From assembly GCF_036971445.1 (NCBI RefSeq), contig NC_091481.1, forward strand, positions 13,950,001-14,014,000: a stretch of DNA of 64,000 nt. The letters run 5' to 3'. This DNA is from Narcine bancroftii. Lineage: Eukaryota. Positions within the stretch are counted from its first letter, which is position 1. The number at the start of each line of letters is the position of its first letter. The position numbers and the translations under genes are program-made. A model generated the notes under the pieces. The model was not told where the DNA came from and did no database searches. It was given only the letters and a program-made list of their open reading frames with translations. Positions 1 to 54,300 of this stretch are shown here, one piece after another.

Positions 1-195
1 GAGGGTTTTGCCTGTGATGACCTGGGCTGTGTACACTACATTTTGCAGGGCTTTACGCTCGGGGGTTTTGGTGTCCCCATACCAGACCATGATGCAGCCA
101 GTCAGCACACTTTCCAGCGCACATAATGGCGTAAACATTTATAATTTGCCTTCTGTCGGTTAAAAGATTTACAGATATAGTTTAGAAAGTCTTAC

Positions 196-284
196 CTTAA
201 AGCCACCTCTGGAATGGCCTATGAGGACTTCCTTTCTCTCTCTATGCCTGCACACTCTACCATGTAAAACTGTTATTGAGGTTC
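196..284 (-). CDS. Candidate exon of an unidentified minus-strand gene
   Basis: ttccccacag|...AAG|gtaaga on the - strand; single open frame TSITVLHGRVCRHRERKEVLIGHSRGGFK, phase-compatible with 733-836. Confidence 0.3.
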
Positions 285-11899: not shown

Positions 11900-12310
11900 C
11901 CCTCATCCCCACCCCGGATCTGCACAGCCAGCCCACACACGGCCTCCTCCGCTCCGGCCGCACGGGGGTGGCTCCAGTCCGGGTTTTTGCAGCGGCTCCG
12001 ACTGCGGGATCGGATCGGAGCGAGCGGTCGACACCCCGCGCAGAGCGCGAGCGTCGGCCAGCAGTGCCCTGGCCGCAGGAGCAGCCCGGAGACCCGGCTG
12101 AAGGGTAGCGCCCGGATCCGGACCCTCCCGCCCCTTGCCCCTCACTCACTGACCTCCAGCCTCTCCTCGACTTATTTCTTTTTAAGACCCTCTCTGGTTC
12201 CTCCCCCCTCCGCCACTTCTTCCTTCTCCCTCCTGCTGTGGATCATCTGGACCCTCTTGGACTGGGCTGCTCCTGGGGAGGTCCGCGATGTCCTGGCTGC
12301 CGGCACTGTG
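11900..12310. promoter_or_regulatory. CpG island, probable kcp promoter and 5' UTR
   Basis: The only non-repeat CpG-dense, GC-rich stretch in the window, directly upstream of the signal-peptide ATG. Confidence 0.75.
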
Positions 12311-12390
12311 CCTGGTGGCACAGGCACCCCTGCTGTGGCAGGTAGTGGTTGGAACCCACATCTCCCAGCCCTACTACCACCAGGAAAATG
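12288..12390 (+). CDS. kcp: kcp exon 1: signal peptide [34 protein letters not shown]
   Basis: ATG at 12288 (ccgcgATG) next to a CpG-rich region, hydrophobic leader, strong donor G|gtaagt at 12391. The phase-1 end joins exon 2 to give [10 protein letters not shown]. Confidence 0.85.
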
Positions 12391-30300: not shown

Positions 30301-33300
30301 AACATTGATTGTTACTCTTTCCATGGATGCTACCCGACCTGCTGAGTGTTTGCAACACTTTCTGTTGCTATTTCAGATTTCTGCCATCAACAGTTCAATT
30401 TTCATTTCTTGTGTTTTAAATATATTTAAATTTCTTTTATAAACTTTAATCAATTCAGGGTTTGAAATTCCACTTACTCCACTAATAACATTTTATGTTA
30501 TAAAGTTTTAAATAAGATACACTTATAAGTGCATGTATCAAGAAGAGCTTTGAAAATTAACCATTGAACTTTACCATGCCTAATTTTTTAAATCAAGCAC
30601 ATTAAAGTACGTCACACTGCCATACATGTCAACCCCTGTCCTCTTTTTCTTAAGCCTCTTCAAAAGAGCCCTGGAACTGGACCTTCATTAGATTTTACAA
30701 AATATTGTTCCTAAAGTAGTAGTTACCTTTTTTTTCTGTGATATTTCAGTTCAGAGCATTTATTTATTTTTGTCTTGTAGTGATTGACCTCCTGGAAGCC
30801 CTCAACATCACAAGATCTGTAAGGGGAGTGAGCAAAAGCAAAGGGTTTGATCCAGGTGTCCTGGCTTGGAAATTTCGTAAGCGTGTGCCACATCTCACCC
30901 TGCCGCGGGACTATGCCATCTACTTCCTCACTTCCATGCAGGGCTCCATCGGCTTTCACTTTGTGGCAAAACAGAGCAGGAACTCCGAGGGAGCAATCAT
31001 CTCCTTCGCCTCTCCCACCATTACCAAAAAGGATGGGCATCCACTTTTACAGCTCACATCCAGCACCAGAAGCAACCAGCTCTGGCTGGATTACCGGACT
31101 GTGCACAACATGGAGCCAGCATCCATTGTCTTTCCAGGAGGAACTCCCTTTGGCAACGGGCAGTGGGGCAGGGTGGCCTTCAACTTGGAGTCTCAGAGAA
31201 TAACACTTCTCATCGACTGTGAAGAAGACATTGTTTTTGAGAAGAACATGGGCGATGATGCCATCAGTCTGATTCTTCCCATTGATTTGGAGATTCACTT
31301 CTCCAGCACTGAAGGAGGAGGCAGCAAGTTCACGGTAAAATGGTGGCTCTAAGCCCTCTCTCATCTTCCTCAACAAAGTGCTGCTCCCCTGTTTGGTTAG
31401 CAGTTGATTAAAAAAAAAAGGCCATCAAGTTCACCTTCTCAATCTTCATAATAATAGAGAAATCCATATCTATCAGTCCTGCTGCAGTCCCAGACATAGA
31501 AGAGCAAACCCCAGCGGAGGGAATTTTAGGAGCCATGATTCCAAAACCACCTGTTCATTTTGACCACACTTGTCTAGCCACACAAATGGATTCCACAGTT
31601 CTGTGAAATCTGTCCAGTCAATATCCTCAAGAAGGCCCATTGTCCTTTACTCCAGTGTGATCTCTTGAACAGATCACATTTTTATTTATTTCTGCACATT
31701 GGTTGCCTTCCTGAATGGTCCTTTTGTAGTGCTTCCACAGGCATCCCAAGCATTAAGGATGCTACACGCTATCATCCTCAGGTTTATGATACACAAGGCT
31801 TGCCCGCCAATCCTTAATAACTTCACCAATAAGATTGCAACAGAGGGGACAACTCATGCTTTCGGAAGAGATGCAATCTGTAAACTATTCTCTCTGCCCC
31901 ATCTGAAAGTATTGGATCACTCTCCCATCTCCTTTGAGATGCTGACATTCTTCCCCTACTTTCAAGATACTAATCCTTACCTTCTCCCCTGAAGATAGAA
32001 GCAACTTTCATCCTTCCTCTGAAGGCAGGGACACCCTTTCTGTCCCACCTTTGAAGGCATTAGCCAATTGAAGACACTAATTCACACCCCAACCTTCCCC
32101 AAAACATACATCTAATCACTCTGATGTCATTCTACCCCTCCTTTGAAGCCCCAGACTTATTCAACCTTTAGATATCTGTATCAGGAAAGAACTTAAAAAT
32201 ATAAAGAGAAGGAAACCTTTACAACCAGTGGTAGAGTCTAGGATGTTAGGACTTATCATGAGAAGCCTGCTCCAAGTAACCAAACTGGTTGTCTCTTGGG
32301 CAGAGATTCTCTCTGATTTTCAATTGGCTCTTTTTTACTTTTGGTTTGCTGTCTCTTGATTTTGGATAACTGTCAGACTGAGAGTCAATCCTCTTTGGGC
32401 TTGCTCTCAGCTGAAACTGGGATATCTTTCAAACTGCGGCTCTCTGTCCACTACAGGGATACTGGCAGACAGCGGAGATCTCTCCAAGTGGATTCACTCA
32501 TCGTCCTTGGCACTGCGACAATCTGCCAGGTGAGAAGGGGACAGAGCTGACCTGAAATTCTGGGGTATGGGGGAAGGAGGGACACATGGGGAAGGAGGGG
32601 CACACATACAGAGAGAGGGAATGATTTGGGAGGACAGTGAGAGGGTAGGTGAGGCTGTAGATGGGATTGGGTGAGGAAAGGGAGTAGGTATAAAGAATGG
32701 GGTGTGTGTAGAGCAGGGGGAGGGCATGAGAATGAATGTACATGGGGATTGTTCAAGGCTGAGAATCCTGGGAGAGTAGATAAGGAGGGGGAATGAACCT
32801 GGGGTAGTGTGCATGGAGGGCCAGTGTGCGAGGTGGGGTAGTATGTGAGGAAGGCAGGATAATATGTAAGAGGTGTTTTGCCTTCTCCGCAACTCACAGG
32901 CTTAATTTGAAAAAAACAGCTCACAGAGCTTTCAGTGACATTGTGGCCCCAGGGGCATTGATCCTTGGAAGATATGACTCAAGTCCTACATGCTAATGCC
33001 TTCTCCCACTGCAGCTCCCACTGGAAATGTGGCCCTGGTGGGAGGAAAGCTGGAGTCTCCAACATGTTTATATTGGAATTGCACATCAAAGCTATTCCCA
33101 GACCTAAACCTCCCTTAATTGGGTCCCATTAAATGTTTCCAGGGCAAATCAAGGACAGTGATCTGCTCTGCAGCCCGAGCCACTATTCCAATCTGATCTG
33201 GAGAGTGGATAATCTTGGGGCTAATGATGCCTCCTTCCTGATCCCTGCCTGGGATTTTCTCTGGGAATGACTAGCTGGTCTATGCTGAGCTTGATGACCA

Positions 33301-36300: not shown

Positions 36301-39300
36301 ATCCCTCAATGAAAGTTCTGTGTGACCTTTACCATTTCATTTTTATTTCTGCAGAAATTTAGGGATTTGCCCTTATGCCAATTAAATAGATATTAAAATT
36401 GCTCTTTGAATGAAAGACTCCAGCCATTCTGTGAATCACTATTGCCTTTTTAAGCATTGCTTTCTATGAGAGCACAGTGAATGACCCCGAACCTGATTAA
36501 ACAGTCTCTCTGTACAATTAGTAAGAGATCTCTTACCATTTACAAAGATGATTGTGGTTTTTACTGTTGAATTTGTGGCTTTGATGACTGGATTTCTATA
36601 AATATTTAAGATAATTTGGCCTGTCTTTTTCAGATTCCTTACCTTTGCCCTACTCATTGGCTGAGGAGCGTTACGCTGATTCAGATGAGGTATTTCAGTT
36701 CAATGAGGATGTCTCTGCTCATTTGATGTCCTTGTCCAACATCAGCCAGGATCGTCAGCAGCAAAATGATGCTGAAGCTCTACTTTTGACCCAGGATCTG
36801 AAACCCAGAAGCCAAGAGGACCGATTAAATAGGTTGGAGGAGATGGTGACCTCACTCAGCACAATGCTGGACATGGTCAAAGCTCGGGTAGGTGAAAGCT
36901 AGGTTCAAAGGCACGAATGGCCAACAATACAATAGTTTACACAGGCGCTGACTCACTGGCCAGAGTCACACAGGTGCTGACTCACTGGCTGGAGTTTACA
37001 CAGGCACTGACTCACAGGCCGGAGTTTACACAGGCACTGACTCACTGGCCGGAGTTTACACAGGCACTGACTCACAGGTTGGAGTTTACACAGACGCTGA
37101 CTCACAGGCCGGAGTTTACACAGGCGCTGACTCACTGGCTGGAGTTTACACAGGCGCTGACTCGCTGGCCGTAGTTTACACAGGCACTGACTCACAGGCC
37201 AGAATTTACACAGGCGCTGACTCACTGGCGAGAGTTTACACAGGCGCTGACTCACTGGCGAGAGTTTACACAGGCGCTGACTCAATGGCGGGAGTTTACA
37301 CAGGCGCTGACTCACTGGAAGAGTGTTAGTAACACCCATCAGGATGCGGTTCGTTTAATACTGACACAGACTGGTTGGGCAAACAACTGTTGAATTTATG
37401 CTTTGGAAGCAGATGTCAGGCTCCTGGGCAATGGGTTGAAGTAAGGAAGTTATGATTATTACGATTGAAAACAATGTAAAATGGGCCACAATTCTGCCTT
37501 TTGGATACAGGGCCTGGAGTGAGTAATGAGTGTGGATGATAAAGAGTTCTGAATTCTCCAATTTTTCCTTGTGGACCTACTCTCCTTCTGTGAACCTTGT
37601 TCCAGGTGCTGAGCTTGGGTTAAACATAGTTAGGAAATGAGACCCTCTCCCCAGCTGTGCAATTTGGGGAAGGTTTTTTGATCTTGGCTCCAGGAAAGGA
37701 CCTCCTTCTCTCTATCTGCGACCCCAAGTGAAAGGCTATTCAAGAAGCAATGCATCTAGCCTGTGACCTCACAGAAAAGCCAAGCTGTATCAAATGGCCC
37801 CACTATCTTCCAGCCACGGCCCCAATAAGAAGCTTCCCTTTCCAGGACTGCTGTTACCATTGCGTTTGTGATGCCTTGCTTTCTGTCCTCGTTTAGAATT
37901 CAGAGCTTCTGCAGCGGATTGAGCACCTCGAGACATGCGAATGCAGGAAATCCGTATGCTTGTGGCAGGGAAAGGAATACGAGGAGGGCCAATCCTGGGT
38001 CCTGGACCCCTGCAACACCTGTGCCTGCAACAAGGGAGAAATACAGTGCTCAAACCAGGAAGATAACCCCTTGTGTCTCAGTAAGTAGTGTACTGTGGAT
38101 CGAGAAGGGAAGAGTTGCTTTGAACTCAGTCTACATGACATTTTATGGATAATATTCGCATCAAGATTATAGTATTACATAGAATACACAACAGAAATGG
38201 GCCATATAGTCCAACCATGTCATTCTAGTGTTTTGACCAAGTTCTATCAGCATTTTTGGCTGGCTCGCCAAATGTGGATGGTCGCTTTTCAACCACCTTG
38301 GTCCAGGTCCTGAGTGGTGCTCAATTCTTCAGTAAATGTATCATAAAGAATGGAGGACTCAGGTACTTAGTTTCCCCAGTACTCCTTTATTACATACAAG
38401 CTTGGTGGGAAGTTCATCACCACCTTACCCACTCCACCATCAACCCCGAAGGGGATCCAGGAACTCTCCAAACACACAATTACATCGTTTTGTATAACCC
38501 GCTGCAATTGGACTTGACCAATCCAAGAAACAATCTTCTCCCATGTGACAAGCATTACCCTATCATTATTAAGCTACACACTATTCATCTGCAAATTGCA
38601 TCATTTAGGTGGCACGGTTGGTAGAGTGGTTAGTGCAACGCCCTTGCAGTGCCAGTGATTGGAACCTGGCTTCGAATCCTATGCTGTCTGTATTGGGTTT
38701 ATACATTCTCACTGCCCACATGCGTTTTCCCTGTGGGCTCCAGTTTCCTCCCACCATTTGAAAAGTATCAGGGGTATAGGTTAATTGGGTGTAAATTGGG
38801 CGGCACAGACCAGTGGGCCAAAATGGCCTGATACCATGCTGTATGTGATTTGATTTTTAAAAATTAAAATTTTGAGAAACAATCATGTAATCAGGTTCCC
38901 CTTTCCTCAGCCATTGTTCTCGCACGCCAACTGAATGGGGAAACTCCAGGCTGGTGGAAACCTACAAGCTGGGCAGGGGTAGCCCACCAACAAATGACAA
39001 AACCATTATCGCATCAATCAATACTACATTTCTTGATTACATTACTTTGTTCAGGCTCTTACCTCTCTGTTCTTTATTTCCTCCTCCTTTGAATGGTTCT
39101 CTGGTCATAAAAAAAATCATCTCCTCTGTTTGCTCAAGAACTTCTGTATCTGCGAGTTCACATTTTCTTCACCCTCTGGTAAAGATGTTCTGTCTGAATG
39201 TTATATTTAATGTTAGATGACCATTCATTGTTGATGACCATTTGTATTGCTCATCCACACAAGGAGAACTATTCTAAATCTTTTCTGTTGTACTGTTTCA

Positions 39301-42300
39301 TTATTTCTGCTACAGTTAGGTCAGCTTCTCTGCATTCCAGTCTGCCTGGCTTCCAGGATCATCCTTGTAAATCTTCTTTCCACTCTCTCCAGTCTTCTAC
39401 ATTCTGTCTATGATGTGGAGACCAGAACTGTACACAACACTGCAAGTGTGGTCTAACTCAGGTCTGTTACTGGTTTTCTCTAACTTCTAGACTTGTCCCT
39501 TCTTTCTCTTTGGAAATAAAAGCATAGGAAATGATAGCATCCAGTCCCTCAGGTCTGGTCTGCATTCATTAAAGTCAGATTTCAGATTTATTGTCAAAGT
39601 AGCATACATGACATCACATATATCCCTGAGATTCTTTTTCCTGTGGGCAAGGCAGAATTGCCACTTATTTGTAGTGCAACAAAACTGTATTCAACTCCCA
39701 CATGTAAACAAATAAAGAAGTGCGAACAAACTGTGCAATACAGAGAGAAAATAAATCAATAACATGCAATAGTAAGAGGCCTTAAATGAGTCCCTGATTG
39801 AGTTTGTTGTTGAAGAATCTGATGGTGGAGGGGTAGCAACTGTTTCTGAACTTCATGGTGTAAGTCTTGTGGCACCTATACCTCTTCACTGATGGTAGTA
39901 GCGAGACAGAGCGTGTGCTGGGTGCGTGGATGCGGTGGTAGCATTCCCTGTGGATGTTCTCAATGCTGGGGAGTGGTTTACCTGTGACATCCTAGCTGTG
40001 TCCATGACTTTTTGCAGGGCTTTAGCTCAGGGGTATTGGTGTCCCCATACCTGACTGTGATGCAGCTGGTCAGCACACTTTCAACCACACATCTGTAAAA
40101 ATATTTGTCGGGGTTTGCAATGTCATATCAAACCTCTACAAACTCTTGAGGAAGTAGCGGTGCTAATATGCTTTCTTCACAATGTTGTGACTGATGTTCC
40201 ACCTCATTTGCATTTCCCTGCCCTGCCCCAACGCTTGATTTCCATAACGCAATTGAATGTTGGCTTTCAACAGTGATTTCACAAGTACACCCAGTCCCCT
40301 CTGAACATCAGCATGAAGCAGTCCCTCACTGAACAAAAGACTGCATCTTTTTTGTGCACCAGAGTGGATAAGTTCACTTTTTGCCATCAGGTGTATTCTA
40401 TCTGTCATGTTCCCTCCAATTCACTAAGCTGGTATGTAACACCCTGCAGCTTCTTTACATCCTTTTCCCCACTCACAATTCCACCTATCAACAGCAAACT
40501 TGAATCGCCTGAACCAGCTCATTGATGTATATCATCGTAAAAGGGGTCAAGCTTTGTCCCTGGACTACCCATTGGCCTTAGCCTATAAGCCTGAGAAAGA
40601 TTTGCTTATTTCAGTTCTTTGTTCAATAACAACTTATCAGTCCATGTCAGTATGTTGGCGCCACTGCCTGTGCTTCAATATTATTGACCATAGAACATTA
40701 CAGTACAGAAATAGACTGAAACCTCTCTGAAAATCGAAATGCACCACGTCCACCTTATCTATTTTATTGGTTACATCCATGACGAACTACATCAGGTTAC
40801 TGAATAAGCCAATGAAATTAAAACTACCAGATATAACATAGTAGGTAGCCTTCTCTCAGTTTTGAGTGAACCTACATCTCTCATTTGGGGCATGAGCCCA
40901 TGAACCAGGCTCACTCTCCCAGTGCAGATTTTAGAGAGCCATGGACTTTGAAGGGCAGACTGCACGATCAGAGGTGGCATTTTTCAGATGAAGCATTAAT
41001 CCAGATTCTGCCTTTCCTTTCAGGCCGGGATGTCAGGGAACCTGTACCCCACAACCAATTAGCTGTTCTTGTCCCTTCTCTCACTGTCTCATGCTCTGAA
41101 CATTCTGCTTCATTCCTAGATCCTTGTTCTAGCAATCCATGCAAGAATGGAGGTGTCTGCCAACCTCTCACCTCTGACTCCAGGATGCAGCCTTCAGGAT
41201 TTGCATGTAACTGCCCAGCAACATCCACGGGGCACTTGTGTGAAGACCGTTTGGTCCAGGTAATGACATTGTTGAAGGCCTGAAAATATTGATCTTTATA
41301 GAAAACACAGCTCAAACAAACAATCAGTGCAATAAGAATATTGGAAATAGACATGGGTCCATCAAAGTCAAGCCATCTCTAATGAGGTTCATCCCTCAAA
41401 CATTCGCAATGTGGCCCACATTTCCTTTCAATAATCTTATATGACTCCTTTTTCCTCCCTGTTTCTCCATCAAACTCTGTCCTTCTAGGCCCTAACTCTC
41501 CAAGCCCATCCTTCTACCACATCCAGGGTAAAACGGAGAGAGTCTGTACTCACTGGTCTATTCCAGATATATCTGTGCATTAGTATGGGGAGATTTTTGT
41601 GACTATTTGGCAGATAACAATTTAATAATATTCTGTTGGCTCTGTAGGTTTGCACACTGCCTCGGGTTAAAGGCCGTTGCACTGGTGGATACGATGCTCC
41701 CAGAAGATGCTGGTTTTACAGCAGTTTCTCTGGTCTGTGTGAAGAATTTAATTACAGCGGCTGCGGAGGCAACAAGAACAACTTTGAAACACATGAGGAA
41801 TGCAAGAAGAGGTGCGAGGTTGGAGCTTGCTGTTTCCGGCAACCTAAGTTGTCCAGTGTTCTAATTGGCTATGACCAAGAAGGCTATGATCGCTATGGGT
41901 ACAATATCTCTGGTTTGAACCGAAATGGTAGGCAGGTGGTGGCATTTAACCCAGTACGTTCTGGGCCGGCATTATTTGGGCAACTCTTCAGTGGCTTGAG
42001 TGATGGACGAGAATTTGATAAATATGGGTTTGACAAACAAGGATATGACCGGGATGGGTTCCACAAGGACACTGGGTTTAACCTCACAGGCCACAACAAG
42101 AAAGGAGAACACGACTCGAGAGCAGAGTTTGATGCAGCAGGATTTGATGCATATGGCTACAACCGAGCCCAGTTTGACTGTGCTGGGATTAACCGTGAGG
42201 GCTTCAACTATCTTGGATTCTCTGCGAGCTACATCTATCATTGTGAATATCTGACAAATTCTCATTGCCAGGCTATCAACAGAGTTGACCCAAGAAGAGA

Positions 42301-45300
42301 GGTGGTCAGCTTCAGGCCAGGCCAAAGGTGTGAGGACGTCCAGTGTGGTCAGAACTGTGGCTGTACCTTCCACAGTCGCTCCTACCGTTTTGGAGAGTCC
42401 TTCAAGTATGGCTGTGAGATCTGCTTGTGCAGCTATACAGGGGTGATTGAGTGCAACTGTCAGCATGTTAGTCAACGCAAGGAGATCCGGGACATGATGG
42501 CTGAGGAAATGATGGTTTACCAGGCAGCAATTCGGGATCTCTACTTTAAACAGGGTAAAGTCCAATTTTTTCTCCACATGTTACTCGCATATATGAAAAT
42601 ATATTTTTCATTATTTCATAAAGCATAGGTATCCATAATTGACCCCAACAGTTCTTGAATCATTGCTTTCTGTCTGGTGAAGGTGCTGCCTGGATGTTAT
42701 ATGCAATGATAATGCTTCCAAGTCAAGGTGGTGGGTGTGAAGTGGAGCTGGTCTTCCTATATGTTTGTTTTGGTCTTTTAAAGTGGCAGAGATCACAGAA
42801 TTGCAAGGTTCTAACAAAGAAACTATGGTAGTAGTGTATCTTGCAGCCAGGACACCCAACAACCACACCGATTGAAGGTGCAGTGGATGACATGCAAATC
42901 AACTGGGTTGTTATGCTCTGGTTGGCATTGAATCATTGAGTGATATTGAAGCTGAGCTCATCCAGGAAAATTCCTAGCAGAAAACACGATGTGATTGTAG
43001 TAAAAACATAAAACTGTTGGAGGAACTCAGCAGGTCTTGCAGTATCCACAGGAAGTAAAGATATATCCCAAAGTTTTGGGTCTGAGCTCTTCACCAAAGT
43101 AGTGATGAAGGTCTCAGGCCCGAAATGTTGGTTATATATCTTTACCTCCTATGGACGCTGCAATACCTGCTGAGTTCCTCCAGCAGTTTTAAGTATTCCC
43201 TAACAGTCCTGACATAACTTTGGTTGGTACGAGCATGAGAATTTATTATCATATATTCTTGCCACCACACACATGAAAGAACAACAACCGTATGCATTAT
43301 ATTACCATGACATGCCATGAAACAGAAAGAGATAATAAATACAAAAACATTAGATAAATATTCACAGTTGCAGCTAATGCAAAAGAAAAAGATGTTTCAA
43401 TTATACAGACAGATCTTTCGGTGATCCCACAGTAGCTTCAGAGTAGTTCTGGTTAAGGATCATATGGGCATGTTCAAGGACCCAAAATTGGGGGAAAAAA
43501 GGCTGGACTTTAGGGAAAAAAAACTATTGGGGAAAAATTTTTCTTGTACCTGGGTGTGCTGTGTTCAGGTGAGCCTGGTGGAAAATTAGTGGAAATCCTT
43601 TGGGAAATGCACATGTGCATGTGATTCTGTATGTTTACGAGTGTAACGGTGTGTTCAATCAGAATCAGGATTTATTGTCATGAACAAGTCATAAAATTTG
43701 GTGTTTTGCAGCAGTAATGTCTTATGACATTACTATATAAAAAAAATTTAAAATAATAGTACACAAAAAGTAAGGCAGTGTCTTAGGTTCATTGATTATT
43801 CAGGAATCTGATGGCAGCGGGGAAGAAGCTGTCCTTGTGCCGCTGAGTGCTCGTCTTTAGGCTACTGTACCTTTTCCCTGATGGTAGCAGAGTGAAGAAA
43901 GCATAGTCTGAGTGGAAGGGGTCTTTGAGGATAGAGGCTGCTTTTCTAAGACACCGCCTCATGTATATGTCTTTAATGGAGTGAGGACTGATGCATGTGA
44001 TGTCACAGGCCGAGTTAATAACCTTCTGGAATTCTTGTCCTGAGTGTTGGTGCCTCCATACCAAGCAGCGATGCAACCAGCCAGAATGCTCTCCACACTA
44101 CACCTGTAGAAGTTTATGAGAGTCTTTGGTAAAATACCGAACCATCTCAGACATCTCACAAAGTATAACCACTGCCAAGCCTTCTTTGTGATTGCATCAA
44201 CATGGAGGCTCCAGAACAGATCCTCAGAGATGTTGACACCTGGGAATTTGAAGTTCTTGGCTCCCTCCACTACTGAGCCCTCAATGAGGACTGGGCCGTG
44301 TTCCCCTGACTTCCTCCTGAAGTCCACAATAATCTCCTTGGTTTTGCTGATGTTGAGCATACGGTTGTTATCATTACACCGTTCAACGAGCTGATCTATC
44401 TCCCTCCTGTACACTTCATCATTGCCATTTGTGATTCTGCCAACAACTGTGGTGTCATTGGCAAACTTGTAGAGAGCATTGGAATTGTGCCCAGCCACAC
44501 AATAATGGGTGTATAGTGAGTAGAGCAGGGGCTAAACATGCATCCTTATGGTGCACCTGTGTTGATGATCAGTGAGGAGGAGCTGTTGTTTCCAATTTGT
44601 ACTGATTGTGGTCTTCCAATTAGAAAGTTGCAGAGTGGGGTTCAGAGGCCTTGAGTTTATAGCTCTTGACTAACACTGAGGGAATAATGGTATTGAAAGC
44701 CGAGCTGTAGGGAGTGCCAATGTAACCGTATCAGATTCCTGGTGCTTTGAACCTAATATGGATGTATAATTACAACTATAGGTGTGCACATGTGTGCATA
44801 GTGCCCTATTTCACATGAGCTGTTTAATCAAGGCTGCATCCTCTCAGTACCACGTAAAACATTGCGTGACATTGTGGGGTAACATTTACCTCTCAACTGG
44901 TATCATTTACACATGCTTTTTCATATAACCACCATGTGCCTCAGAAACAGGTTTAATCCGTTTAACCAATAAGGCAGTTCCCCCTCTTTTCCCCTCACCC
45001 TATCCCAAATTGCTTTATATTCTCTAGGTGACTGGCCAACAGGTTCTCTGACATTGAATCCAACAGGAATTCACAGAAGTAGCAAAAGTCTGAAGCCCCA
45101 TGTTACTGCAGTGCCACAGATAGAAAATATCAAGGTTATCTGATATTCCTTCACCTGTTTATTTTGTTCAATTGTGAGAGAATCAAGTAATCTTTCATTA
45201 GTTTGTTGTTTTGTGGAATTTTATAGTTGGAGTTTTCTTTTAAAAATCTATGCTTCTTTGGTTGCAAAAGGCTTTGAGGTGCCATGAGAAAATAAAGGCA

Positions 45301-48300
45301 AAAAGCAAAATTCTTAATGTTTCACTATGTCTCAACAGGTACCTGGGAGGAGTTTGCCAAGTTAAAAGCAGAGTACTTGCCACAAGCCAATGGACTGTCC
45401 ACCTTTCTCCCCTGGCATCGTTACTTCCTCCGAATGGTGGAACGAGAACTGCAGAAGATATCATGTGACATCACCATCCCATATTTTGAATGGACCATAG
45501 ATGCAGGTTCGATGGAAAGTTCTACCGCATGGCAAGGAAACTTTTTTGGGGCAAACGGAGACCCTGAGACAGACTGCGTCTCCTATCACCCTTTCCAGCA
45601 AGACAGTGAATGGGTTCCTTGCCTTCGTCGACGCTTCAACTCTTCCATCAATCTTCCAGATGCAATCAACATTCAATTGATATTAGCAGAGCAAGACTTT
45701 GACCAATTCTCCACTCAAATGGAAACCATCTCAGGGCTCTTCCATCTCTGGATCGGAGGTCATATGGCCTCTCCTTTTAGTCCGTATGATCCAGTTTTCC
45801 TGTCTCATTATGCATTTATAGATAAACTTTGGAGTCAGTGGCAGGACCGCAGCCCAAGTGGCCTGCCCCGTTACCCATCTGAACTCCGATTTGTGAAGAT
45901 GAGGCCATTTGACATTGCCCCAGATGATCTCTTGTTATCTCAGCAACAGCTTTGCACAGTGTATGTTCCAGTCACACTCGGTGCTCCTTGCAACTATACA
46001 AATTCCAATTCCTTGCATCGTGACCAGAAAGGCTACAACAGGAAAGATTTTGATCAAAACGTACATCCAGATACACAAAGAAGTTACGATATCCGTGGGT
46101 ATGACCGACAGGGTTACGATCGTAGCGGCTTTGACCAGAGCGGTTGGAATCATAATGGTTATGGCAGAGACCATTTTAACAGGGATGGTTTTGACATTGA
46201 AGGATTTGATGTTTCAGGGTACGATCGTTATGGTTTCAATCGATCTCTGGTCACGCCATTTGGAATGTGGAAAGATGAGACCTATCAGCCTTATGTTAAG
46301 GTAGAAGTTATCGAGTCACTCTTTGATGGTGGCTATAACACTTATGGATATAACAAGTTTGGCTTGGATAAGAATGGGTTTGATGTGTTTGGTTTTGATG
46401 AGAATGGATATGACAAAGACAATTGCAATTATTTCTTCAAAGGCCCTCATCACATGAGATTCTATTTCTTTGTCCAGCAGCAGCTCTACATGGCAAGCCC
46501 TGATCTGCTGCTTAATATTAAACGTATCTGCCCCCCAGTAACCCCACTCCCAGATTGGTGGCTTGTACAGAACTGGATGATCACCAATGTGCACATCATC
46601 CGGCACATTGAAGACAAGTGGGCTTCTCATCATCCTTTTGACAGCGGATATATCCCCCACATTTCTTCAGTGAAAGGCAATGGCCTTTGGCTTCCTGTGA
46701 CCCCCAACATCAGGTAGGTACAGAATCATTGAAGTGTTTGATTGCAGTTCCATTACCTTTAATGAAGGTGGGTATGATCGTCTTTGTTCCAAGGTATTTC
46801 ACCACTTGTCCCCAACTGGTAGAATCCATCATGCTCTATTCACAGTCAATCTATTAATTCAGTTCTATTAAATATCCTTTGTGTTTTGCTGCATCAGTGG
46901 GAACAGTTTTTACAATTTGCATCTCTCCTCAAGACTAGAATTTCCCTTCTCAGGAATTACGCTGGTGAATCCATGTCTATGCACTTGGATTTAATATCCT
47001 TTACTCTATAGAGTGATGATCTGAACTGCACAGAGTTTCTAAGATGACCTCAACATAACTGTCAATAAATTAATTAATCTTCTTTACTCTATAATTAACC
47101 ATGGGATGGTGTTTCTACTTCAGAGTGTAATCACTTGTCTAGGCACAAATCGTGCCCAAAGTTGCATTTGCATTGAAAAGCAATTTTAATTCCTGTCATG
47201 TTTTTGTTTTCAATTTGCCAAATACTAACTCTGTGATGCATTCGTGCAATTAGAAAGCATGTTAGAATTTAATGGATTAATTTAAAAAATATCCTTGATA
47301 CACTTTTTTAATTAGATGTAATCAATATTCAAACTGTTACTTCACATTGGGGTAATCTGATTTGACAGAAAATTTTTAAAAAACTAAGTCAAACTATTTA
47401 TGAATTAAATTTTGATAATGTTGTGAAAAACAAGCTTTTTAGTCTCATGCTCAAAAGAATCAACTTATTTTTAAAATGCTTAGATGTCCTGCAAAATATT
47501 CACAATTGATAGAACTTCACAATGACGATTTTCTCTAGACTAGGGCAAGATTTGTGCCTGGGCCAGGACTGCGGGACAGTGTTTGTTAAACTGAAGTGAA
47601 AGGTTGCAGAAATTTGGTTTGCCCTGAACGTAGTTGTACTTTTAAAATATTTGGCAATGTCTACATTGATTGTGAATGAATAGTGCAAATCTTGCAGAAA
47701 TATATATTTAAAAATGCTGTTTGATTTTTATGGTTATGAAATGGCCTGTTTGCCCTTCAGTTCTGCACTTGCCAATTTACAATGCCTCCCAGATAAACTG
47801 CATTTTGATTTGAAAATTCTCCGCTGTGTTTTCCAATTCCCTCATGGCCTTATCTTAATCTCACCCAACCCTTTAAGATCTTGTGGTTATCTAGCTTCAA
47901 ATATCCCCAACTTTGATTAGTCCATTGGAAGCCATTTCTTTCCTGTCCAACCTCAATCTTTGAAATCTTTCTGTAAATTACCTCAGTAAATATATTTTCA
48001 CCCTATTATGATTGTTAAATATGCTTCATTAACGTATGTTTTCATTGTTGTCATTTTAGCTCCCAGCACTTGAACTGTTAGAATCTTTTGTTTAGAATCA
48101 GGGTGGCATGGATTTGTATAGCATGGAATGGACCCTTCAACTCAATGTGCCCATATCAACCATGAATTCCATCTGCCTGCATGAAGTCCAGATTTCTATC
48201 AAATGCCTTTAAAATCCTGCAATTGTACATGCCTCTACCACTCCTCTGCAGCTTCTTCCATATAACCACCACCCTCAGTGAGGGGGGGGGGGGGAAGCCC

Positions 48301-51300
48301 TCCCTTCTCTCACCTGAAACTTGGTTTAAGAATCCCCCACCTGAAGAAAAGAGGGCACCGTTCATGCAGTGGTCAGTGCAATGCTGTTACAGCATCAGTG
48401 ACCCGGGTTCAAATCCTGTGCTGTCTGAAAGGAGTTTTGCACATTTTCCCTGTGACTGTGTAAGTTTCCTCCAGGTGCTCCGGTTTCCTTCCACGGGTTT
48501 TGTAAATTATTTGCTGTATTTGGGAGGAATGGACTCCTGGGCCGCAAGGGCTGTTGCTATGCTGTATACCTAAATTCAAAATTTAGATAGAGACCATTTA
48601 TCCTATATATGCCCCTCATAATTTTATGTGTCACCCCTCGGTCTCTGATATTTAATTCCATGGCTCTCAACATCTGTACACTTGGTGATACCAAGAGCCT
48701 TTTCATGGTTGGTTGTCTTTTCACATGCCTCTTTTTTCTTGCCTTGTAGGTTTTGCTTTGAGCTACACTGGTATTCAGGCTGCCCACTCGGGACTCAGCC
48801 AGTCAGATGCCCTGACCTGTGCCAGCACTCCAAGTGCCTGGGATTCCCAAACATGGAGTGCCGAGTCCATCGCTGTGGCACCTGCTTCAGCGAGTGGTAC
48901 AACGGAACCACAGGCCGCCACGTCATGTGTCAGGGTTGGTTACCAGCATTCCCCAGTCCATCCGTTCACTTGGTGTGATTGCAGGGTTTTCAGTTGGGGC
49001 TGAGGGAGATGGGGGAAGTGTGGTTCTTAAAGGGGGTTGTCTTGGGTCTTGTGGGAGGGAAGACAAGTTTGGAGTAAAACATAAAAGTCTGCAGATGTTG
49101 TGATTGTAGTAAAAACATAGAAAAGCTGGAGGAACTTATCAGGTCTCACAGTCCATAGGAGGTGTTACTGACATTTTGGGCCTGAGCCCTTCTTTTAGTT
49201 CTTTTTGAGCTACAGGGAAGGAGCAGATGGTTCTTCCACATGAACTTTGCCTTTTGGCAAAGCGAGACTGTCCCACTGCCCAGAACACTTTCTCCAATCT
49301 CGTTGCTCCTCTTAATTCTATGTAATCTGTTCTCTCTCTCTTTCTCATGCCCACTAACATTTCCTGATTTACCCACCTCCTGCCTTGTGGATGTGCATGG
49401 AAATTGCAACAATTGGGGTAACCCTTGTAGGCACAGGGAGAATATACAAGCCCCACATAGCAAGGGGAGGTGAGGGTCAAGCCTGTCATTAGATGTGAGG
49501 TAGCACTCCTTTGCTTTCTGTTAGGTCAGTGAGGTGAAGGGCCTGATTGCAGAGGTGGGGCTGGGGAAGGGGACTGGTCTGTGTTTAAACAAGGAGGCTG
49601 GACTGCAATGCAGAGAGGGGCTGTTTTGGGAGTGCAGAGGGTAGGGCTTTGTCAGGAGCGCGGGAGCAGTGTCAGACTTTGGAGAAAAGTACTGCATTGG
49701 GCTGTGGAGTTGGGAGGGCTTGTGGGGAGAGGAAGGGTTGAGTGGAGAGGAGCAGTCATGTCGGAGTGTGTAGATGATGTCTGCACAACACTTGATACAA
49801 ATGATGGGATTAGAGCATTCTTCACACCTGCCTTTCAAACTTCTTCACTGTTCTTTCTCAAGCCAGGGCTCGGTAATTGCCCCTGGATTTGGATCGCGGT
49901 TATCACAATATTCTGCTGCAATTGAATGTGGTGCATTTGGATTTTCAGAAATGTCCTACAATTGTATGACACTTTATAAATCCCTGAGGAACAGATCCAA
50001 CCCTAGAAATGGACAACCTGATGGTCTGTGCTAGTTATTGGGTCCAGACTCCAACAATGGCACATAAGGATGCATTAAAAAAATTGTGGGAAAGATATGA
50101 GCTGGTGATGATCCATTTCTGAGGGGAACAGTCATTCATGTTTGAACTGTTGTTTATTGTACATCCTGCCAATAACATGAAACTTTTCCTGCTTTCATTA
50201 CTGTTTTAAACCAGTCCATTAGTCTATTTTAATTTCTCTCTTCATTTAACTGTTGCTCTTGCAGCATGACCCTCCCATTATTTCCCATTATGCACGCTGC
50301 TGCATGTTTACTCATTCCCTTTACTCTGATTTTCTTCCTTTTAGGTTGTACAGTTGATAAGAACATGAGATAGACAGATTTTTCGAGCTGGCAGCTCTCT
50401 ACATGCCAGGGTGGTGAAGTGTATTGTTTGAAGTTGCACTGTCCAGATCCTAGGAGCTGCTAACATCCAAATGTTCTTCTTGTGGTGGTCTAGCCTGTTC
50501 CCCATCCATTGCTCCCTCAAGTTCATGCAGTGCAATCCCAACCATTTAAACATTCAAATGAGTATCAAAAGCAACAGGGGAAAAAAATGATAATATCTAA
50601 AATAAACCATCTTCTCTTCACCAGAAACTGTCTTCATAAACCTCACACTCTTTCAGCCATTTACCCTAAAACACCTCTCAACTCTGTACCACTGTAACCC
50701 TTTAATGGAATTACCAAGAATGGGAACTTGTGGATATTTCTCTTTTCTGCTACATATGTCTCTAGGCCCTCTTCCCTTTCTCTGCTTGACCTTGCTACCT
50801 GCCCCCTTCCCATCAGTCCAAGAGTATCTTGAGCCTGATCCATAACAAAGAAAACAGGAATGAATTGGGGGGTGAGCAATGGTGGTAGGATGTTTTGGGG
50901 TTACAAGGAGGGAGAATGGGAGAAGAGGAAAGGGGACCAGTGATCATGCAAGGCAAAGATAGCAAATGGAGAAAAAGGAAGAGGGGTACAATGAAAGGAA
51001 TTATCTAATGAGGTAAAGAGATGAGAGAAGATCATTTTGGGGGGGTGAGGACTGGATAATTAACTTCTGAATAAATTAAACATGGGCAATTAAAATTTAT
51101 AAGATTAAATTGAGTGTGGTCCTGATTGTTCAAAATGTTGAAAGCACTGAGATCAAGCCTTAGAGATCCTTATATTGACAAAGTACAGAGGTTAACACGG
51201 GGAGGGAGGATCAATTGGAATAACACACTAATGGAGCAAGGGGTCGGGATAATCTGTATATGTGTGCAGTTTATTGGAATAGTGTGGATGAGGGGGATCA

Positions 51301-54300
51301 GGTATTTCTGGACTGGGGACTCAAATGTAAAAAAAATTGCCATTTATCCTCTTTCTGTTAAAGGTTGTAACTACAATGGACAGACTTTTCAGAATGGGGA
51401 TTCAGTCATCATTGATACATGCATGTCCTGTGTGTGTCTGGTGAGTGAACAAAGCAAGGAGTTGGCATTGCCAAGGCTTGGGCAGAGGGTCAGCTTCAGG
51501 AGAGGGCAATGAAGAATCAGAGGGGGAATAAGTCAGCACCTTCTGGAGAGGGGGAGCGAGTCAGAAGTTACTGGGGAGGAGGAGCAAGTCAGCACCTACT
51601 GGGGAGGGGGAACAAGACAGCACCTTCTAGGGAGAGGGGCGCGAGTCAGGACCTTCTTTGGAGGGGGAGCAAGTCAACATCTTCAGGGGAGGGGAGCGAG
51701 TCAGCACCTTCTATGGAGGGGGAGCAAGTCAACATCTTCAGGGGAGGGGAGCGAGTCAGCACCTTCTGGGGAGGGGGGGCAAGTCAGAAGTTACTGGGGA
51801 GGAGGAGCAAGTCAGCACCTACTGGGGAGGGGGAACAAGACAGCACCTTCTAGGGAGAGGGGTGCGAATCAGGACCTTCTGGGGTAGCACCAGCTCCTTC
51901 ACAGGATGGGGAGCACCTTTAGGGAAGAATGCCTCAGCGGCTTCAGGGGAGGGGGAGAAGCAGCAGCACCTTCAGAGAACACCTTGGGAGTGGGAGAAGC
52001 GACTCAGCACCTTCAGGGGAGGAGGTAGCACCTTTGGGGGAAGAGCAACTCAGTGTCCTTAGAGGATGGGAGCGGCAGCTCCTTTGATGATGGAGTGGGG
52101 GGTGGGCGACTAAGCACCTCAAGAGAGGGGGGAGTGACTCAGCACCTTCAGCAGTTATGGGGGGAGGTGATGAAAATATTATGGGTTATTTGGGTAGTTG
52201 TACACTTGACTTTAGGTCTGTGCTGAAGCCAGTGAGTGATGCAATGCCTCTGTCCTTTTGAAGAATGGAGATATATTCTGTGCGCCTGTGCAGTGTCGTC
52301 CCCTGAGCTGTAAGGATGTCGTGCAGAGACCAGGATCCTGCTGCCCTGAGTGTGCCCAAGGTGAGTAGTGAGTGTCAGGAGTATTTGCTATTCTGTTTCA
52401 TGTTTATTCTTTCATGTTGCACTCATTTATCCCAAATTGTGGCTGTTAATGAGACAGGAGACTGTGAACATTATAGGTGCTTTTGGAGATATGTTTGGTC
52501 CAGGGAACAAGAGTGCTGGCAACAGTTTGATTTCATGAGTCTTGAGTAAAGAGTGGATAAAGCTGAGGTTCAGAACACCTTGTGATGTACAATCCCTCAA
52601 CTCTGCTGATTCCCTGTATATTTTGTCTCTCCTTCTGGCATACCCTCAAGATTAAGAGTGATTTGTTTCCACACTAGATCTGTGGCTTTAAATGTGGACA
52701 ACAAGACCAATGTGGAACCCACATTCTGCACTGATGGTGGACATGTCTCTGAGTAGATGATGAGATGACTGGTTCCTTCTACCATTCATGCTTGACTTTG
52801 GTGTGTGTGAGCATGAGGCTCCACTGCCATCTGAGCAACATACCTGATACCAGTCCAACAGAGCCACTCATGGTCATGGTCACATGATGCTGAAGTTGTT
52901 TCAAATGAACCAAATGTAAATGGAGGTAAATTTCTTCAGGAGGCAGATACGAGGAGGTGCTCTAAAGTCCTTCACGTGTTGAAAAAGGCTACAAGGTATT
53001 TTTTGACCTCTTGTGCGTTGAAGACAAATGGATTCTACACTTATTTAGGGAGTAGCTCTCCTTCTCCTGGGAGGAGAAGCATGGCAATGACTGTCCATGT
53101 AGCAGTTAACATCTTGGTGATGGTCACAATTACACCTTCTGTAGAAAATCCTCTTCCTCCCAAAGACTGTAGATTTGCCATTTAACTTCTTCTCTGCCAA
53201 GTGCTAGAACTTTAGTTGGGATACCATCTGCTTACAAGCATTTTCAATTTTTTTAATAATCACAAGTAGCACTAGAGGTGGACTGGATAGAAGATGGAAT
53301 CAAGGGCATTCGTGTAAGGTCAGAGTTACAATTAGAACAAGAAATAGGAGCAAGAATTGGCTTCCTGGCCTACCCCACCATTCAGTGAGATCATGGCTGT
53401 TGTGACAATAGGCTTATCTCCATCTACCTGACTTTTCCCCACATCCCTTAATTCTCCTACTATGTAAAAATCTATCTGACCTTATCTTAAATATATTCAC
53501 TGACGTAGCCTCCTCTGCCTCATTGGGCAGCGAATTCCATACATACATCATCCCCTGGGAAAAGCAATTCCTCCTCATCTCCGACCTAAATCTACTACCC
53601 TGGATCTTATGTCCCCTAGTTCTAGTCTCCCCCACCAATAGGAAAACTTACCTACCTCTTATTTATGCCTTTTATAATTTTATATGTTTCTACAGGATCT
53701 CTTCTCATTCTTTTAAATTCAAGCAAGTACAGCCCTGATAACTCAATCTCTCCTCATAGGCTATCCCTCTCATCTCTGGAATCAACCTGGTAAACCTCCT
53801 CATGACTGCCTGCAAAGTCAGTACATCCTTCCTCAAGTGAGGAGACCAGAACTGCATGCAGTACTCCAGAAGTGAAATCACCAGTACCCTGTTGTAGCAT
53901 AACCTCCCTGCTCCTAAATTCAATCCCTCAATCGTTGAAGGCCACCATTCCATTTGCCTTCCTGATGGCCCGCTGCACCTGCAAAACAACCCTTTGTGAT
54001 TAATACACAAGCACTCTTAAGTCTTCCTGCATGGCAGCACGTTGTAATTGCTTCCATTTTTACTTCCAATGTGGATGACCTCACATTTGCCTACATTGTA
54101 CTCTATCTGCCAGACCTTTGCCCATTCTCTTAACCTAACTATATCTCTGCAGACTCTCCATATCCTCTGCACAATTTGCTTTTCAATTCATTTTAATGTC
54201 ATCAGCAAACTTGGATACACCACACTCTGTCCTCTCTTCCAGATCATTAATATATATTGTGAACAGTTGCGAGTCCAGCACCGACTCCTGTGGCATCCTG

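What the first reader, a model, noticed from the sequence alone, without database searches (positions are those of the whole stretch)
41860..46440. Two arrays of G-[YF]-[DN]-x-x pentapeptide repeats flank the tyrosinase fold
Seen: [21 protein letters not shown] and [43 protein letters not shown] in exon B (about 41865-42220). Exon C has [49 protein letters not shown] and [33 protein letters not shown] (about 46030-46430). The period is 5 residues but the codons are diverse, so the repeat is maintained at protein level and is not a DNA microsatellite. I recall such repeats mainly from uncharacterised microbial and invertebrate proteins, not vertebrate matrix proteins. Inference: a beta-turn solenoid, cation-binding or self-assembling element. 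The Tyr/Gly richness next to a phenoloxidase fold also suggests a cross-linking substrate (speculative).
Basis: partly seen in the sequence, partly recalled or inferred. Interest (0 to 1): 0.7.

Follow-up and report, generated by a model that had tools for sequence, protein, structure and literature searches.

The report
Dead tyrosinase cassette inside ray kielin
The repeats are real and sit on both sides of a copper-less, probably inactive tyrosinase domain inside the BMP-modulating protein kielin (KCP) of a ray or skate; the same module occurs from newts and sharks to molluscs, and with an intact copper site in choanoflagellates, but is missing from the frog and mouse forms that have been studied.

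Summary
Both G-[YF]-[DN]-x-x arrays are real, kept at protein level, and better conserved than the rest of their exons. They lie in the kielin/chordin-like (KCP) gene of a batoid, inside a four-exon, 869-codon cassette: EGF, Kunitz, array 1, Cys module, tyrosinase fold, array 2, helical cap, Cys domain. Contigs of one public run join exons B-C and C-D. The tyrosinase fold keeps 2 of 6 copper histidines; named animal copies keep 0-3, whereas 5 of 7 copies of the choanoflagellate clade keep all six. So it is a pseudo-enzyme, and cross-linking in cis is very unlikely. Tyr/Phe and Asp/Asn swap freely, and the same profile occurs in 174 mostly prokaryote-like proteins, among them helicases. AlphaFold2 models the arrays as ordered chains of turns inserted in loops, not as beta-helices. 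Best reading: a structural turn repeat within a non-catalytic spacer or binding module of a secreted BMP/TGF-beta modulator. Sharks, sturgeon, coelacanth and salamanders have the cassette; many teleosts lost array 1; two partial frog and caecilian models lack the cassette. I found only a passing mention in print.

The parts
12288..12390 (+). KCP coding exon 1, signal-peptide-like N-terminus
   Evidence: tblastn with Hemitrygon KCP residues 4-37, 69%; ATG and GT donor read from the sequence
30781..31334 (+). LamG / thrombospondin-N-like exon
   Evidence: 89% to Hemitrygon KCP 38-225; PF13385 weak, E 0.13
32457..32529 (+). short exon closing the LamG-like domain
   Evidence: 96% to Hemitrygon 223-246
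36634..36887 (+). linker / probable coiled-coil exon
   Evidence: 74-84% to ray KCPs; coiled coil inferred from the heptad-like sequence, not computed
37897..38080 (+). first VWC (chordin-type cysteine-rich) exon; phase-1 donor, upstream edge of the cassette
41120..41259 (+). cassette exon A: EGF-like domain
   Evidence: PF00008 E 1.2e-4; AG/GT ends
41648..41818 (+). Kunitz domain with a 4-residue insert and Thr at P1 (non-canonical binding loop)
   Evidence: PF00014 E 9e-15; VIA Z 9.9, rmsd 1.3, 53 aligned; P1 read against BPTI numbering from my own knowledge
41819..42337 (+). small Cys-rich alpha/beta host domain (GACC strand, then YxC...CQ...VVxFxPG..C) with array 1 inserted in its first loop
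   Evidence: model strands 58-66 and 195-224; low-Z matches span 58..226 with 40-50 aligned residues; host domain kept without the array in many teleosts and in invertebrate cassette 1
41867..42214 (+). array 1: 12 G-[YF]-[DN]-x-x units
   Evidence: pLDDT 81-95 except the spacer 101-120
42362..42460 (+). short Cys-rich beta module (VWC/FnI-like half repeat)
   Evidence: strands 239-271 in the model; PF25028 weak in homologues
42476..45970 (+). pseudo-tyrosinase fold, split by the intron 42555-45338; copper-ligand positions K9, N17, H26, S131, H135, Y157 of exon C
   Evidence: splice joint present in a contig of run X1
46031..46420 (+). array 2: one outlying unit and 15 units from 46097
   Evidence: pLDDT 88-97 over residues 251-360
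46451..46713 (+). helical C-terminal cap of exon C, modelled as one rigid body with the tyrosinase core
   Evidence: helices 371-430, pTM 0.89; alignments to hemocyanin units and latent tyrosinases reach residue 439
48750..48934 (+). cassette exon D: Cys-rich domain, phase-1 donor
   Evidence: 86% to Hemitrygon 1207-1269; joined to exon C in a contig of run X1; no Pfam family
50345..50469 (+). decayed optional VWC exon (stops and deletions)
   Evidence: 54% to the matching Hemitrygon exon, E 1e-11; read
51364..60897 (+). five exons (51364-51440, about 52261-52360, 57145-57213, 58977-59073, 60811-60897) starting the long VWC run; the rest of the gene, with the VWD domain, is inferred to lie beyond the window
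   Evidence: 69-91% to Hemitrygon KCP 1324-1470

Best explanation
The gene is kielin/KCP, a secreted protein whose VWC repeats modulate BMP and TGF-beta signalling. Between its first VWC and the long VWC run it carries an ancient, in-frame cassette (EGF, Kunitz, host domain with array 1, Cys module, tyrosinase fold, array 2, helical cap, Cys domain). The tyrosinase fold has lost its dicopper site and is a pseudo-enzyme. The arrays are structural: each unit is a tight turn capped by Asp/Asn and closed by Gly, and the Tyr/Phe of successive units pack into an aromatic core, giving a small ordered turn solenoid that is inserted in a loop and packs on the neighbouring domain. The cassette as a whole most likely acts as a rigid, non-catalytic spacer and binding platform (matrix or partner tethering) between the LamG/coiled-coil head and the BMP-binding VWC tail. 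SHOWN: gene identity, exon chain, splicing of two joints, loss of the His ligands, conservation, Y/F and D/N exchange. PREDICTED: ordered turn fold and packing on the tyrosinase body. INFERRED: no catalysis; spacer or tethering role; partner unknown.
For: Identity: 33 of 43 hits of 1923-5000 aa carry tyrosinase plus VWC families, 25 of them also VWD; many are named kielin/chordin-like; window exons are 82-85% identical to Hemitrygon and Rhinoraja KCP and collinear over 14 matched exons. The four cassette exons have AG/GT ends, total 2607 nt and read without a stop; contigs of run X1 join B-C (0 other letters) and C-D (1 other letter). Ligand mapping follows the published motif H1(n)H2(8)H3 / H1(3)H2(n)H3 with Phe at -4 and Asp at +4 (passages of PMC3658974); in the same alignment columns three homologues read HHHHHH, an internal control. 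Of 92 gap-free rows, 87 outside the choanoflagellate clade have 0-3 His; named animal domains, first cassettes included, have at most 3. Repeat profile in 35 KCP sequences (G100; Y49 F38; D61 N38; R40 K12) nearly equals that in 174 prokaryote-like hits (Y53 F39; D64 N35; R37 K27), many fused to UvrD-like helicases or VirB10/DotG-like proteins. AlphaFold2: exon C pLDDT 88.8, pTM 0.89, arrays without strands of 3 or more residues. Each array is dispensable in some lineage while its host domain stays: array 1 in six of the named teleost proteins, most of array 2 in Salpingoeca urceolata.
Against: No binding partner or function of the cassette was tested; 'spacer or tether' is inference. I could read only DSSP strings and confidence, not coordinates, so aromatic packing is inferred. 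AlphaFold2 can be overconfident on repeats (abstract of PMC11795689), though that concerns perfect repeats modelled as beta-solenoids. Some Asp positions are near-invariant (D265, D282, D290, D348), which a metal site would also give. A few Tyr are well kept (Y297 90 of 98). Vertebrate copies from sharks to salamanders keep H26, H135 and H156, so a single-metal site is not excluded. Splicing rests on one run of one study whose RNA status is a guess, tissue unknown.
Confidence: 0.66

Rival explanations
1. The arrays are calcium- or cation-binding repeats (like thrombospondin type 3 or RTX repeats) that stiffen the protein in the extracellular space.
For: Asp/Asn at every fifth residue; several Asp columns 96-99% conserved; array 2 is net acidic, 21 D+E to 12 K+R; extracellular location; LamG/TSPN neighbour.
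Against: Asn replaces Asp in 38% of units and position 4 is mostly Arg/Lys; array 1 is nearly neutral (17 to 14); the same repeat occurs on helicases that are expected to be cytoplasmic; no Pfam calcium-repeat family matches at E up to 10.
Confidence: 0.12
2. The arrays drive self-assembly or oligomerisation of KCP into a matrix network.
For: Aromatic- and Gly-rich repeats; many invertebrate KCPs hold two cassettes in tandem; long bacterial arrays occupy the N-terminal repeat region of VirB10/DotG-like proteins, the region proposed to form the wall of the secretion stalk (passages of 10.1101/312009).
Against: The KCP runs are short (median longest run 6 units against 15 in prokaryote-like proteins), split by conserved spacers, and modelled as packed on their host domains (pTM 0.89).
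Confidence: 0.1
3. The arrays are Tyr-rich substrates for DOPA or dityrosine cross-linking, by the adjacent domain or by another oxidase in tanning tissue.
For: 12 of 27 units have Tyr at position 2; the choanoflagellate relatives have intact copper sites next to the same repeats, so this may have held in the ancestor. Proteins labelled kielin/chordin-like occur in argonaut eggcase and mussel footprint proteomes (passages), but these are described as VWC-only or are 5-15 kDa.
Against: The adjacent domain lacks 4 of 6 ligands; Tyr and Phe both exceed 15% in 21 of 32 columns; same Y/F ratio in prokaryote-like proteins; the residues are modelled as ordered.
Confidence: 0.06
4. The fold keeps a reshaped one-metal or small-molecule pocket (a sensor or carrier), and array 2 with the helical cap is its lid, as in latent pro-tyrosinases.
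For: H26, H135, H156 kept in all 11 shark-to-salamander rows and in Amia, Albula, Anguilla, Arapaima; alignments to hemocyanin units and latent tyrosinases extend to residue 439, the cap; a Kunitz domain lies upstream.
Against: H135 is Gln, Arg or Lys in 55 of 99 rows and some molluscan and teleost copies have no His at any of the six sites; the cap alignments add only about 40 residues at 4-5 A rmsd.
Confidence: 0.1

Closest known systems
Kielin/chordin-like protein (KCP; Xenopus kielin, mouse KCP)
   Same: Signal peptide, LamG-like head, VWC run and (in orthologues) VWD; orthologues named KCP by RefSeq. Mouse KCP has 18 cysteine-rich motifs, enhances BMP and inhibits TGF-beta/activin (passage of PMC5795989); Xenopus Kcp has LamG, VWC and VWD domains (passages of PMC6750614).
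   Different: An 869-residue EGF-Kunitz-repeat-pseudo-tyrosinase cassette after the first VWC, not mentioned in those passages and absent from two partial amphibian models, Ascaphus and Rhinatrema.
Type-3 copper proteins, alpha subclass (bacterial tyrosinases, molluscan hemocyanin units; PF00264)
   Same: Fold (Z 21.9 to 1wx2), FLPWHR and GGxM..DPxF motifs, Phe -4 and Asp +4 landmarks, secreted.
   Different: 2 of 6 copper histidines; embedded in a 3200-residue signalling protein; followed by a turn-repeat insert and a helical cap in place of a caddie or beta-sandwich domain.
Choanoflagellate Kunitz-tyrosinase membrane proteins (Salpingoeca rosetta PTSG_11343, PTSG_12389, 'mantle protein 9'; S. 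urceolata; Hartaetosiga balthica)
   Same: Same order Kunitz, GACC host domain, Cys module, tyrosinase, cap, Cys domain, with the same repeats in several; sister clade to all animal copies (97/90 joint, 100/98 and 99/94 each).
   Different: Six His intact in 5 of 7; C-terminal hydrophobic segment read by eye as a membrane anchor; no VWC run or VWD; uncharacterised.
PF25296 'Decapeptide repeat region' and the DotG/IcmE repeat
   Same: Gly-aromatic-small polar start; long bacterial G[YF][DN]xx arrays score against both, below cut-off (27-30 bits vs 45; NF033900 partial; DotG chain E 6e-5).
   Different: DotG repeats read GF[ST]AxEL[KR]xA with a 10-residue period; the window's arrays match neither model. 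Whether PF25296 was built on DotG I did not check.
Tuphoxin (ascidian) and nematode/mollusc secreted tyrosinases
   Same: Secreted alpha-type tyrosinase domain with EGF-type neighbours.
   Different: Tuphoxin keeps its copper histidines and has no kielin or VWC mention (passages of PMC9395347).

Membership tests
Kielin/KCP | Signal peptide and LamG/TSPN-like N-terminal domain | tested here: met
   exons 12288-12390 and 30781-31334 match ray KCP at 69% and 89%; PF13385 only E 0.13; no signal-peptide predictor was run
Kielin/KCP | Many tandem VWC (chordin-type) repeats | tested here: met
   one VWC exon before and five exons after the cassette match Hemitrygon KCP, which has 26 VWC stretches
Kielin/KCP | C-terminal VWD domain | not testable with these tools
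   lies beyond the window and no genome is held; present in the closest orthologue
Kielin/KCP | Orthology by tree | tested here: met
   window groups with Rhinoraja and Hemitrygon KCP (99/96), within 9 jawed-vertebrate rows (99/99), sister to tunicates (98/98)
Kielin/KCP | Binds BMP / TGF-beta and changes signalling | not testable with these tools
   known for mouse and Xenopus proteins
Active type-3 copper enzyme (tyrosinase, catechol oxidase, hemocyanin) | Four-helix type-3 copper fold | tested here: met
Active type-3 copper enzyme (tyrosinase, catechol oxidase, hemocyanin) | Three His at CuA and three at CuB | tested here: not met
   K9, N17, H26 / S131, H135, Y157
PF25296 Decapeptide repeat / DotG repeat | Score above the family cut-off; 10-residue period | tested here: not met
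   no match for either exon at E up to 10 or in NCBIfam; period is 5
Beta-helix (beta-solenoid) repeat proteins | Stacked parallel beta-strands along the repeat | tested here: inconclusive
   both models show only isolated bridges in the arrays, which speaks against it, but these are predictions and the arrays were not folded or searched alone
Calcium-binding Asp/Gly repeats (thrombospondin type 3, RTX) | Family motif and calcium-dependent folding | tested here: inconclusive
   no Pfam match; calcium binding not testable; motifs recalled from my own knowledge
Canonical Kunitz protease inhibitor | Kunitz fold with a canonical binding loop and basic or large P1 | tested here: inconclusive
   fold met; Thr at P1 and a 4-residue insert read from the sequence; inhibition not testable
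DNA microsatellite or minisatellite | Tandem identity at DNA level | tested here: not met

The most novel reading that the evidence does not exclude
Kielin arose when a phase-1 exon block from a pre-animal, cell-surface phenoloxidase (still six-His in Salpingoeca) was captured by a LamG-VWC-VWD protein, lost its copper site, was duplicated before protostomes and deuterostomes split, and was kept for over 550 million years as a pseudo-enzyme that tethers or gates a BMP modulator. The G-[YF]-[DN]-x-x unit would be an undescribed turn-solenoid fold family running from bacterial helicases and secretion stalks to vertebrates. The frog and mouse proteins on which KCP biology rests would then be derived, cassette-less forms, and fishes and salamanders would use a longer or alternatively spliced KCP with an unknown ligand.
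Probability: 0.4. Interest if true: 0.75.

Novelty: new variant of a known kind. Interest (0 to 1): 0.57.

Why it matters
KCP is a studied regulator of BMP and TGF-beta in fibrosis and heart development, but the work I saw uses mouse and Xenopus forms. Most other bilaterian KCPs found here carry about 870 extra residues (twice that in many invertebrates) built round a dead tyrosinase. This gives a traceable enzyme-to-pseudo-enzyme change across the origin of animals, shows six-His type-3 copper domains in choanoflagellates where a 2013 survey found none in Monosiga, and points to a common repeat with no family model or solved structure that I could find. Zebrafish-type teleosts, axolotl and Salpingoeca rosetta make it testable.

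Tried and rejected
No whole genome is held, so synteny and the VWD exons could not be checked. Fold searches gave nothing for the repeats: Foldseek PDB lists were filled by tyrosinases and Kunitz domains, VIA-align likewise, BFVD had no match under E 0.9; the arrays were not folded alone, so this does not show a new fold. ESM Atlas: no usable hit for exon C 225-400; for a bacterial array only unnamed clusters under 0.9. A two-copy complex of exon C scored 0.00: no verdict, neither for nor against binding. No RNA holder is listed on record; X1 and X2 are guessed RNA; parts without cover were not read as findings, and the joints into and out of the cassette were not among the rows shown. Earlier findings: nothing by sequence, words or place. 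Literature searches without a description of the cassette or repeat: (irrelevant hits; 0; 14 papers, 13 listed, one passing mention; 0; 5; 1; six repeat motifs, 0; 3; 177, 20 listed), 80 (65, 10 listed). Rejected: microsatellite origin; separate tyrosinase gene next to kcp, as some teleost models have it (33 long models join it to VWC repeats; frames compatible); recent transfer of the repeat from bacteria as an explanation for this gene (the tyrosinase tree follows animal phylogeny; the repeats alone are too simple to place on a tree).


Full report
1. The observation. Array 1 has 12 units at 41867-42214 and array 2 has 15 units at 46097-46420 plus an outlier at 46031. G[YF][DN] occurs 10 and 13 times in the two exons against shuffle means near 0.6 (maxima 5 and 6 in 20,000 shuffles), and all 16 five-spaced pairs in the six frames of the window lie here. 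There is no DNA tandem; the 27 units are no more alike at DNA level than random synonymous back-translations (0.520 vs 0.515, p 0.20). The repeat is kept at protein level.

2. The gene. tblastn with homologues gives a collinear chain of exons on the + strand from 12288 to 60897: signal-peptide-like start, LamG-like domain, linker, one VWC, then EGF, exon B, exon C, a Cys-rich exon, then further VWC exons. A search among proteins of 1923-5000 residues returned 43 hits; 33 carry tyrosinase and VWC families, 25 of those also VWD, and many are named kielin/chordin-like: sharks, rays, chimaera, sturgeon, coelacanth, newt, teleosts, tunicates, sea urchins, a brachiopod, molluscs and chelicerates. 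The window's exons are 82-85% identical to Hemitrygon and Rhinoraja, so the window is a batoid kcp locus. The cassette exons 41120-41259, 41648-42554, 45339-46713 and 48750-48934 have AG/GT ends, add up to 2607 nt and read without a stop; the block begins and ends in phase 1, so it can be skipped or lost in frame. In run X1 (RNA status a guess) one contig runs from 42039-42553 into 45338-46098 with no other letter and another from 46480-46711 into 48748-48933 with one (table 8): two introns are absent there. This is one study, tissue unknown.

3. The tyrosinase fold is a pseudo-enzyme. The fold is certain (PF00264 E 2e-27; Z 21.9 over 205 residues to Streptomyces tyrosinase). By the published motif (passages of PMC3658974) the six ligand positions in exon C are K9, N17, H26, S131, H135, Y157. 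In a 99-row alignment 92 rows have no gap at these columns (7 dropped): 13 have no His, 37 one, 23 two, 15 three, 1 four, 3 six. The rows with four or six belong to the choanoflagellate clade, which also proves the column mapping. A profile search over 56 chosen proteins added the first cassettes of invertebrates: named animal domains have at most three His; one unnamed fragment (P0321) has four; 5 of the 7 choanoflagellate-clade domains have six (S. urceolata, two S. rosetta proteins, two unnamed), one four, one three. Against full loss of metal binding: H26, H135 and the neighbouring H156 are kept from sharks to salamanders.

4. History. A maximum-likelihood tree of 60 domains (248 columns; midpoint root for drawing; teleosts and redundant rows left out) puts the window with the two rays (99/96), jawed vertebrates with tunicate second cassettes (98/98), all second cassettes together (100/96), all first cassettes together (100/99), the 41 animal rows together (99/94) and the 7 choanoflagellate-clade rows as their sister (100/98; joint 97/90). 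So the cassette predates animals, was duplicated before protostomes and deuterostomes split, and vertebrates kept the second copy; the outgroups have long branches, so the root is not firm. The choanoflagellate proteins have the same domain order, a C-terminal hydrophobic segment and no VWC run. No frog, reptile, bird or mammal protein is among the named hits of three searches (120 of 132, 120 of 166 and 43 of 43 listed, most unnamed), which is weak evidence; two short amphibian models, Ascaphus and Rhinatrema, go straight from the first VWC into the next, while Pleurodeles has the cassette and Ambystoma and Lissotriton fall in its 90% cluster. Loss and exon skipping cannot be told apart here. 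Cnidarians and sponges did not appear among named hits; I did not test them.

5. What the repeats are. They are more conserved than the rest of their exons in 28 of 31 pairwise comparisons (the three exceptions are choanoflagellate rows). Tyr and Phe both exceed 15% in 21 of 32 aromatic columns, and Asp and Asn mix in most third positions. The position profile in 35 KCP sequences is nearly that of 174 prokaryote-like hits, where runs reach 61 units and sit on UvrD-like helicases, VirB10/DotG-like proteins and others. AlphaFold2 gives exon C pLDDT 88.8 and pTM 0.89, with array 2 at 88-97 and no strand of three residues in it; exon B pLDDT 85.7, pTM 0.69, with array 1 at 81-95 apart from one loose spacer. 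Array 1 sits in a loop of a small Cys-rich alpha/beta domain that persists without it in Metynnis, Prochilodus, Umbra, Thunnus, Oncorhynchus and Boreogadus and in invertebrate first cassettes; array 2 sits between the tyrosinase core and a helical cap, and is mostly gone in S. urceolata, which has all six His. That [DN]-x-x-G is a classic Asx-capped turn with a left-handed Gly is my own knowledge. AlphaFold2 can be overconfident on perfect repeats (abstract of PMC11795689), and I saw no coordinates.

6. How it most likely works. A secreted KCP binds BMP and TGF-beta family ligands through its VWC run (known for mouse and frog: passages of PMC5795989 and PMC6750614). The cassette adds a large, rigid, copper-free body whose turn arrays are structural inserts; its likeliest job is spacing and tethering to matrix or a partner (0.66 for the whole reading; the first half is shown, the job is inferred). 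Rivals: calcium-stiffened repeats (0.12), self-assembly (0.10), a reshaped one-metal or ligand pocket with a lid (0.10), cross-linking substrate (0.06).

7. What is known. The domain content is in automatic annotation of RefSeq and UniRef proteins. One paper on mussel and tubeworm tyrosinases notes in a sentence sequences over 3,000 residues with additional kielin/chordin-like domains (one passage of PMC11667028). A 2013 survey found no type-3 copper protein in Monosiga or Strongylocentrotus and its main text does not name kielin (passages of PMC3658974). Ten searches of the held library gave no description of the cassette, its lost ligands or the repeat; subscription papers are mostly missing, the original kielin paper was not held (seen only as a title in a reference list), and I read no supplements, though those of PMC11667028 and PMC3658974 may list such sequences. 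Other papers seen as passages only: PMC9395347, 10.1101/2021.07.10.451900, PMC12993968, 10.1101/312009, PMC8486379. The nearest library model, PF25296, is not matched by the window's arrays and only below cut-off by long bacterial arrays.

8. Verdict. Real feature; member of the KCP family; not a member of the active tyrosinases; the repeat has no family model that fits. New variant of a known kind. The arrays alone are of moderate interest; the ancient pseudo-tyrosinase cassette that holds them, absent from the studied frog and mouse forms, is the more notable result. Interest 0.57.

Noticed in passing
window 50345-50469 (+): Decayed copy, with stops and deletions, of a VWC exon that is intact in Hemitrygon and in Hypanus isoform X1 and skipped in Hypanus isoform X2; absent from the Hemiscyllium and salamander models shown.
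   Followed up: partly
window 24099-27668 (+), intron 1 of kcp: Young-looking non-LTR retrotransposon: endonuclease (PF03372, E 9e-14) and reverse transcriptase (PF00078, E 3e-30) in one frame, broken by a single stop near 26190.
   Followed up: partly
window 36952-37354: Minisatellite of about 30-nt units in the intron after the linker exon, open in frames on both strands.
   Followed up: no
window 43660-44700 and 38700-40350: High-copy interspersed repeats in the cassette introns, depth 10,000 to over 1,000,000 in laid runs; one fragment matches PF09004.
   Followed up: no
window 41678-41710 (+): Kunitz binding loop has Thr at P1, a 4-residue insert and an extra Cys (RRCWFY); probably not a canonical inhibitor.
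   Followed up: no
P0006, P0008, P0012, P0013 (teleost models): Several teleost models end right after the cassette's last Cys domain, as separate 'uncharacterized' genes or short forms: either split annotation or a real early-ending KCP isoform.
   Followed up: no
P0279 (Acipenser ruthenus): A KCP model with the tyrosinase fold missing and the two arrays fused, while Huso huso has the full cassette: a decaying sturgeon paralogue or a faulty model.
   Followed up: no
P0273, P0274, P0286, P0294: Echinoderm and amphioxus KCP models hold only the first cassette, vertebrates only the second: reciprocal loss after the duplication.
   Followed up: partly
P0198 and related hits: VirB10/DotG-like proteins whose N-terminal repeat region is made of G[YF][DN]xx units in place of the DotG decapeptide.
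   Followed up: partly
P0280 (Anaeramoba ignava): A 3085-residue protist protein with long pure arrays (up to 24 units) and no Pfam family.
   Followed up: no
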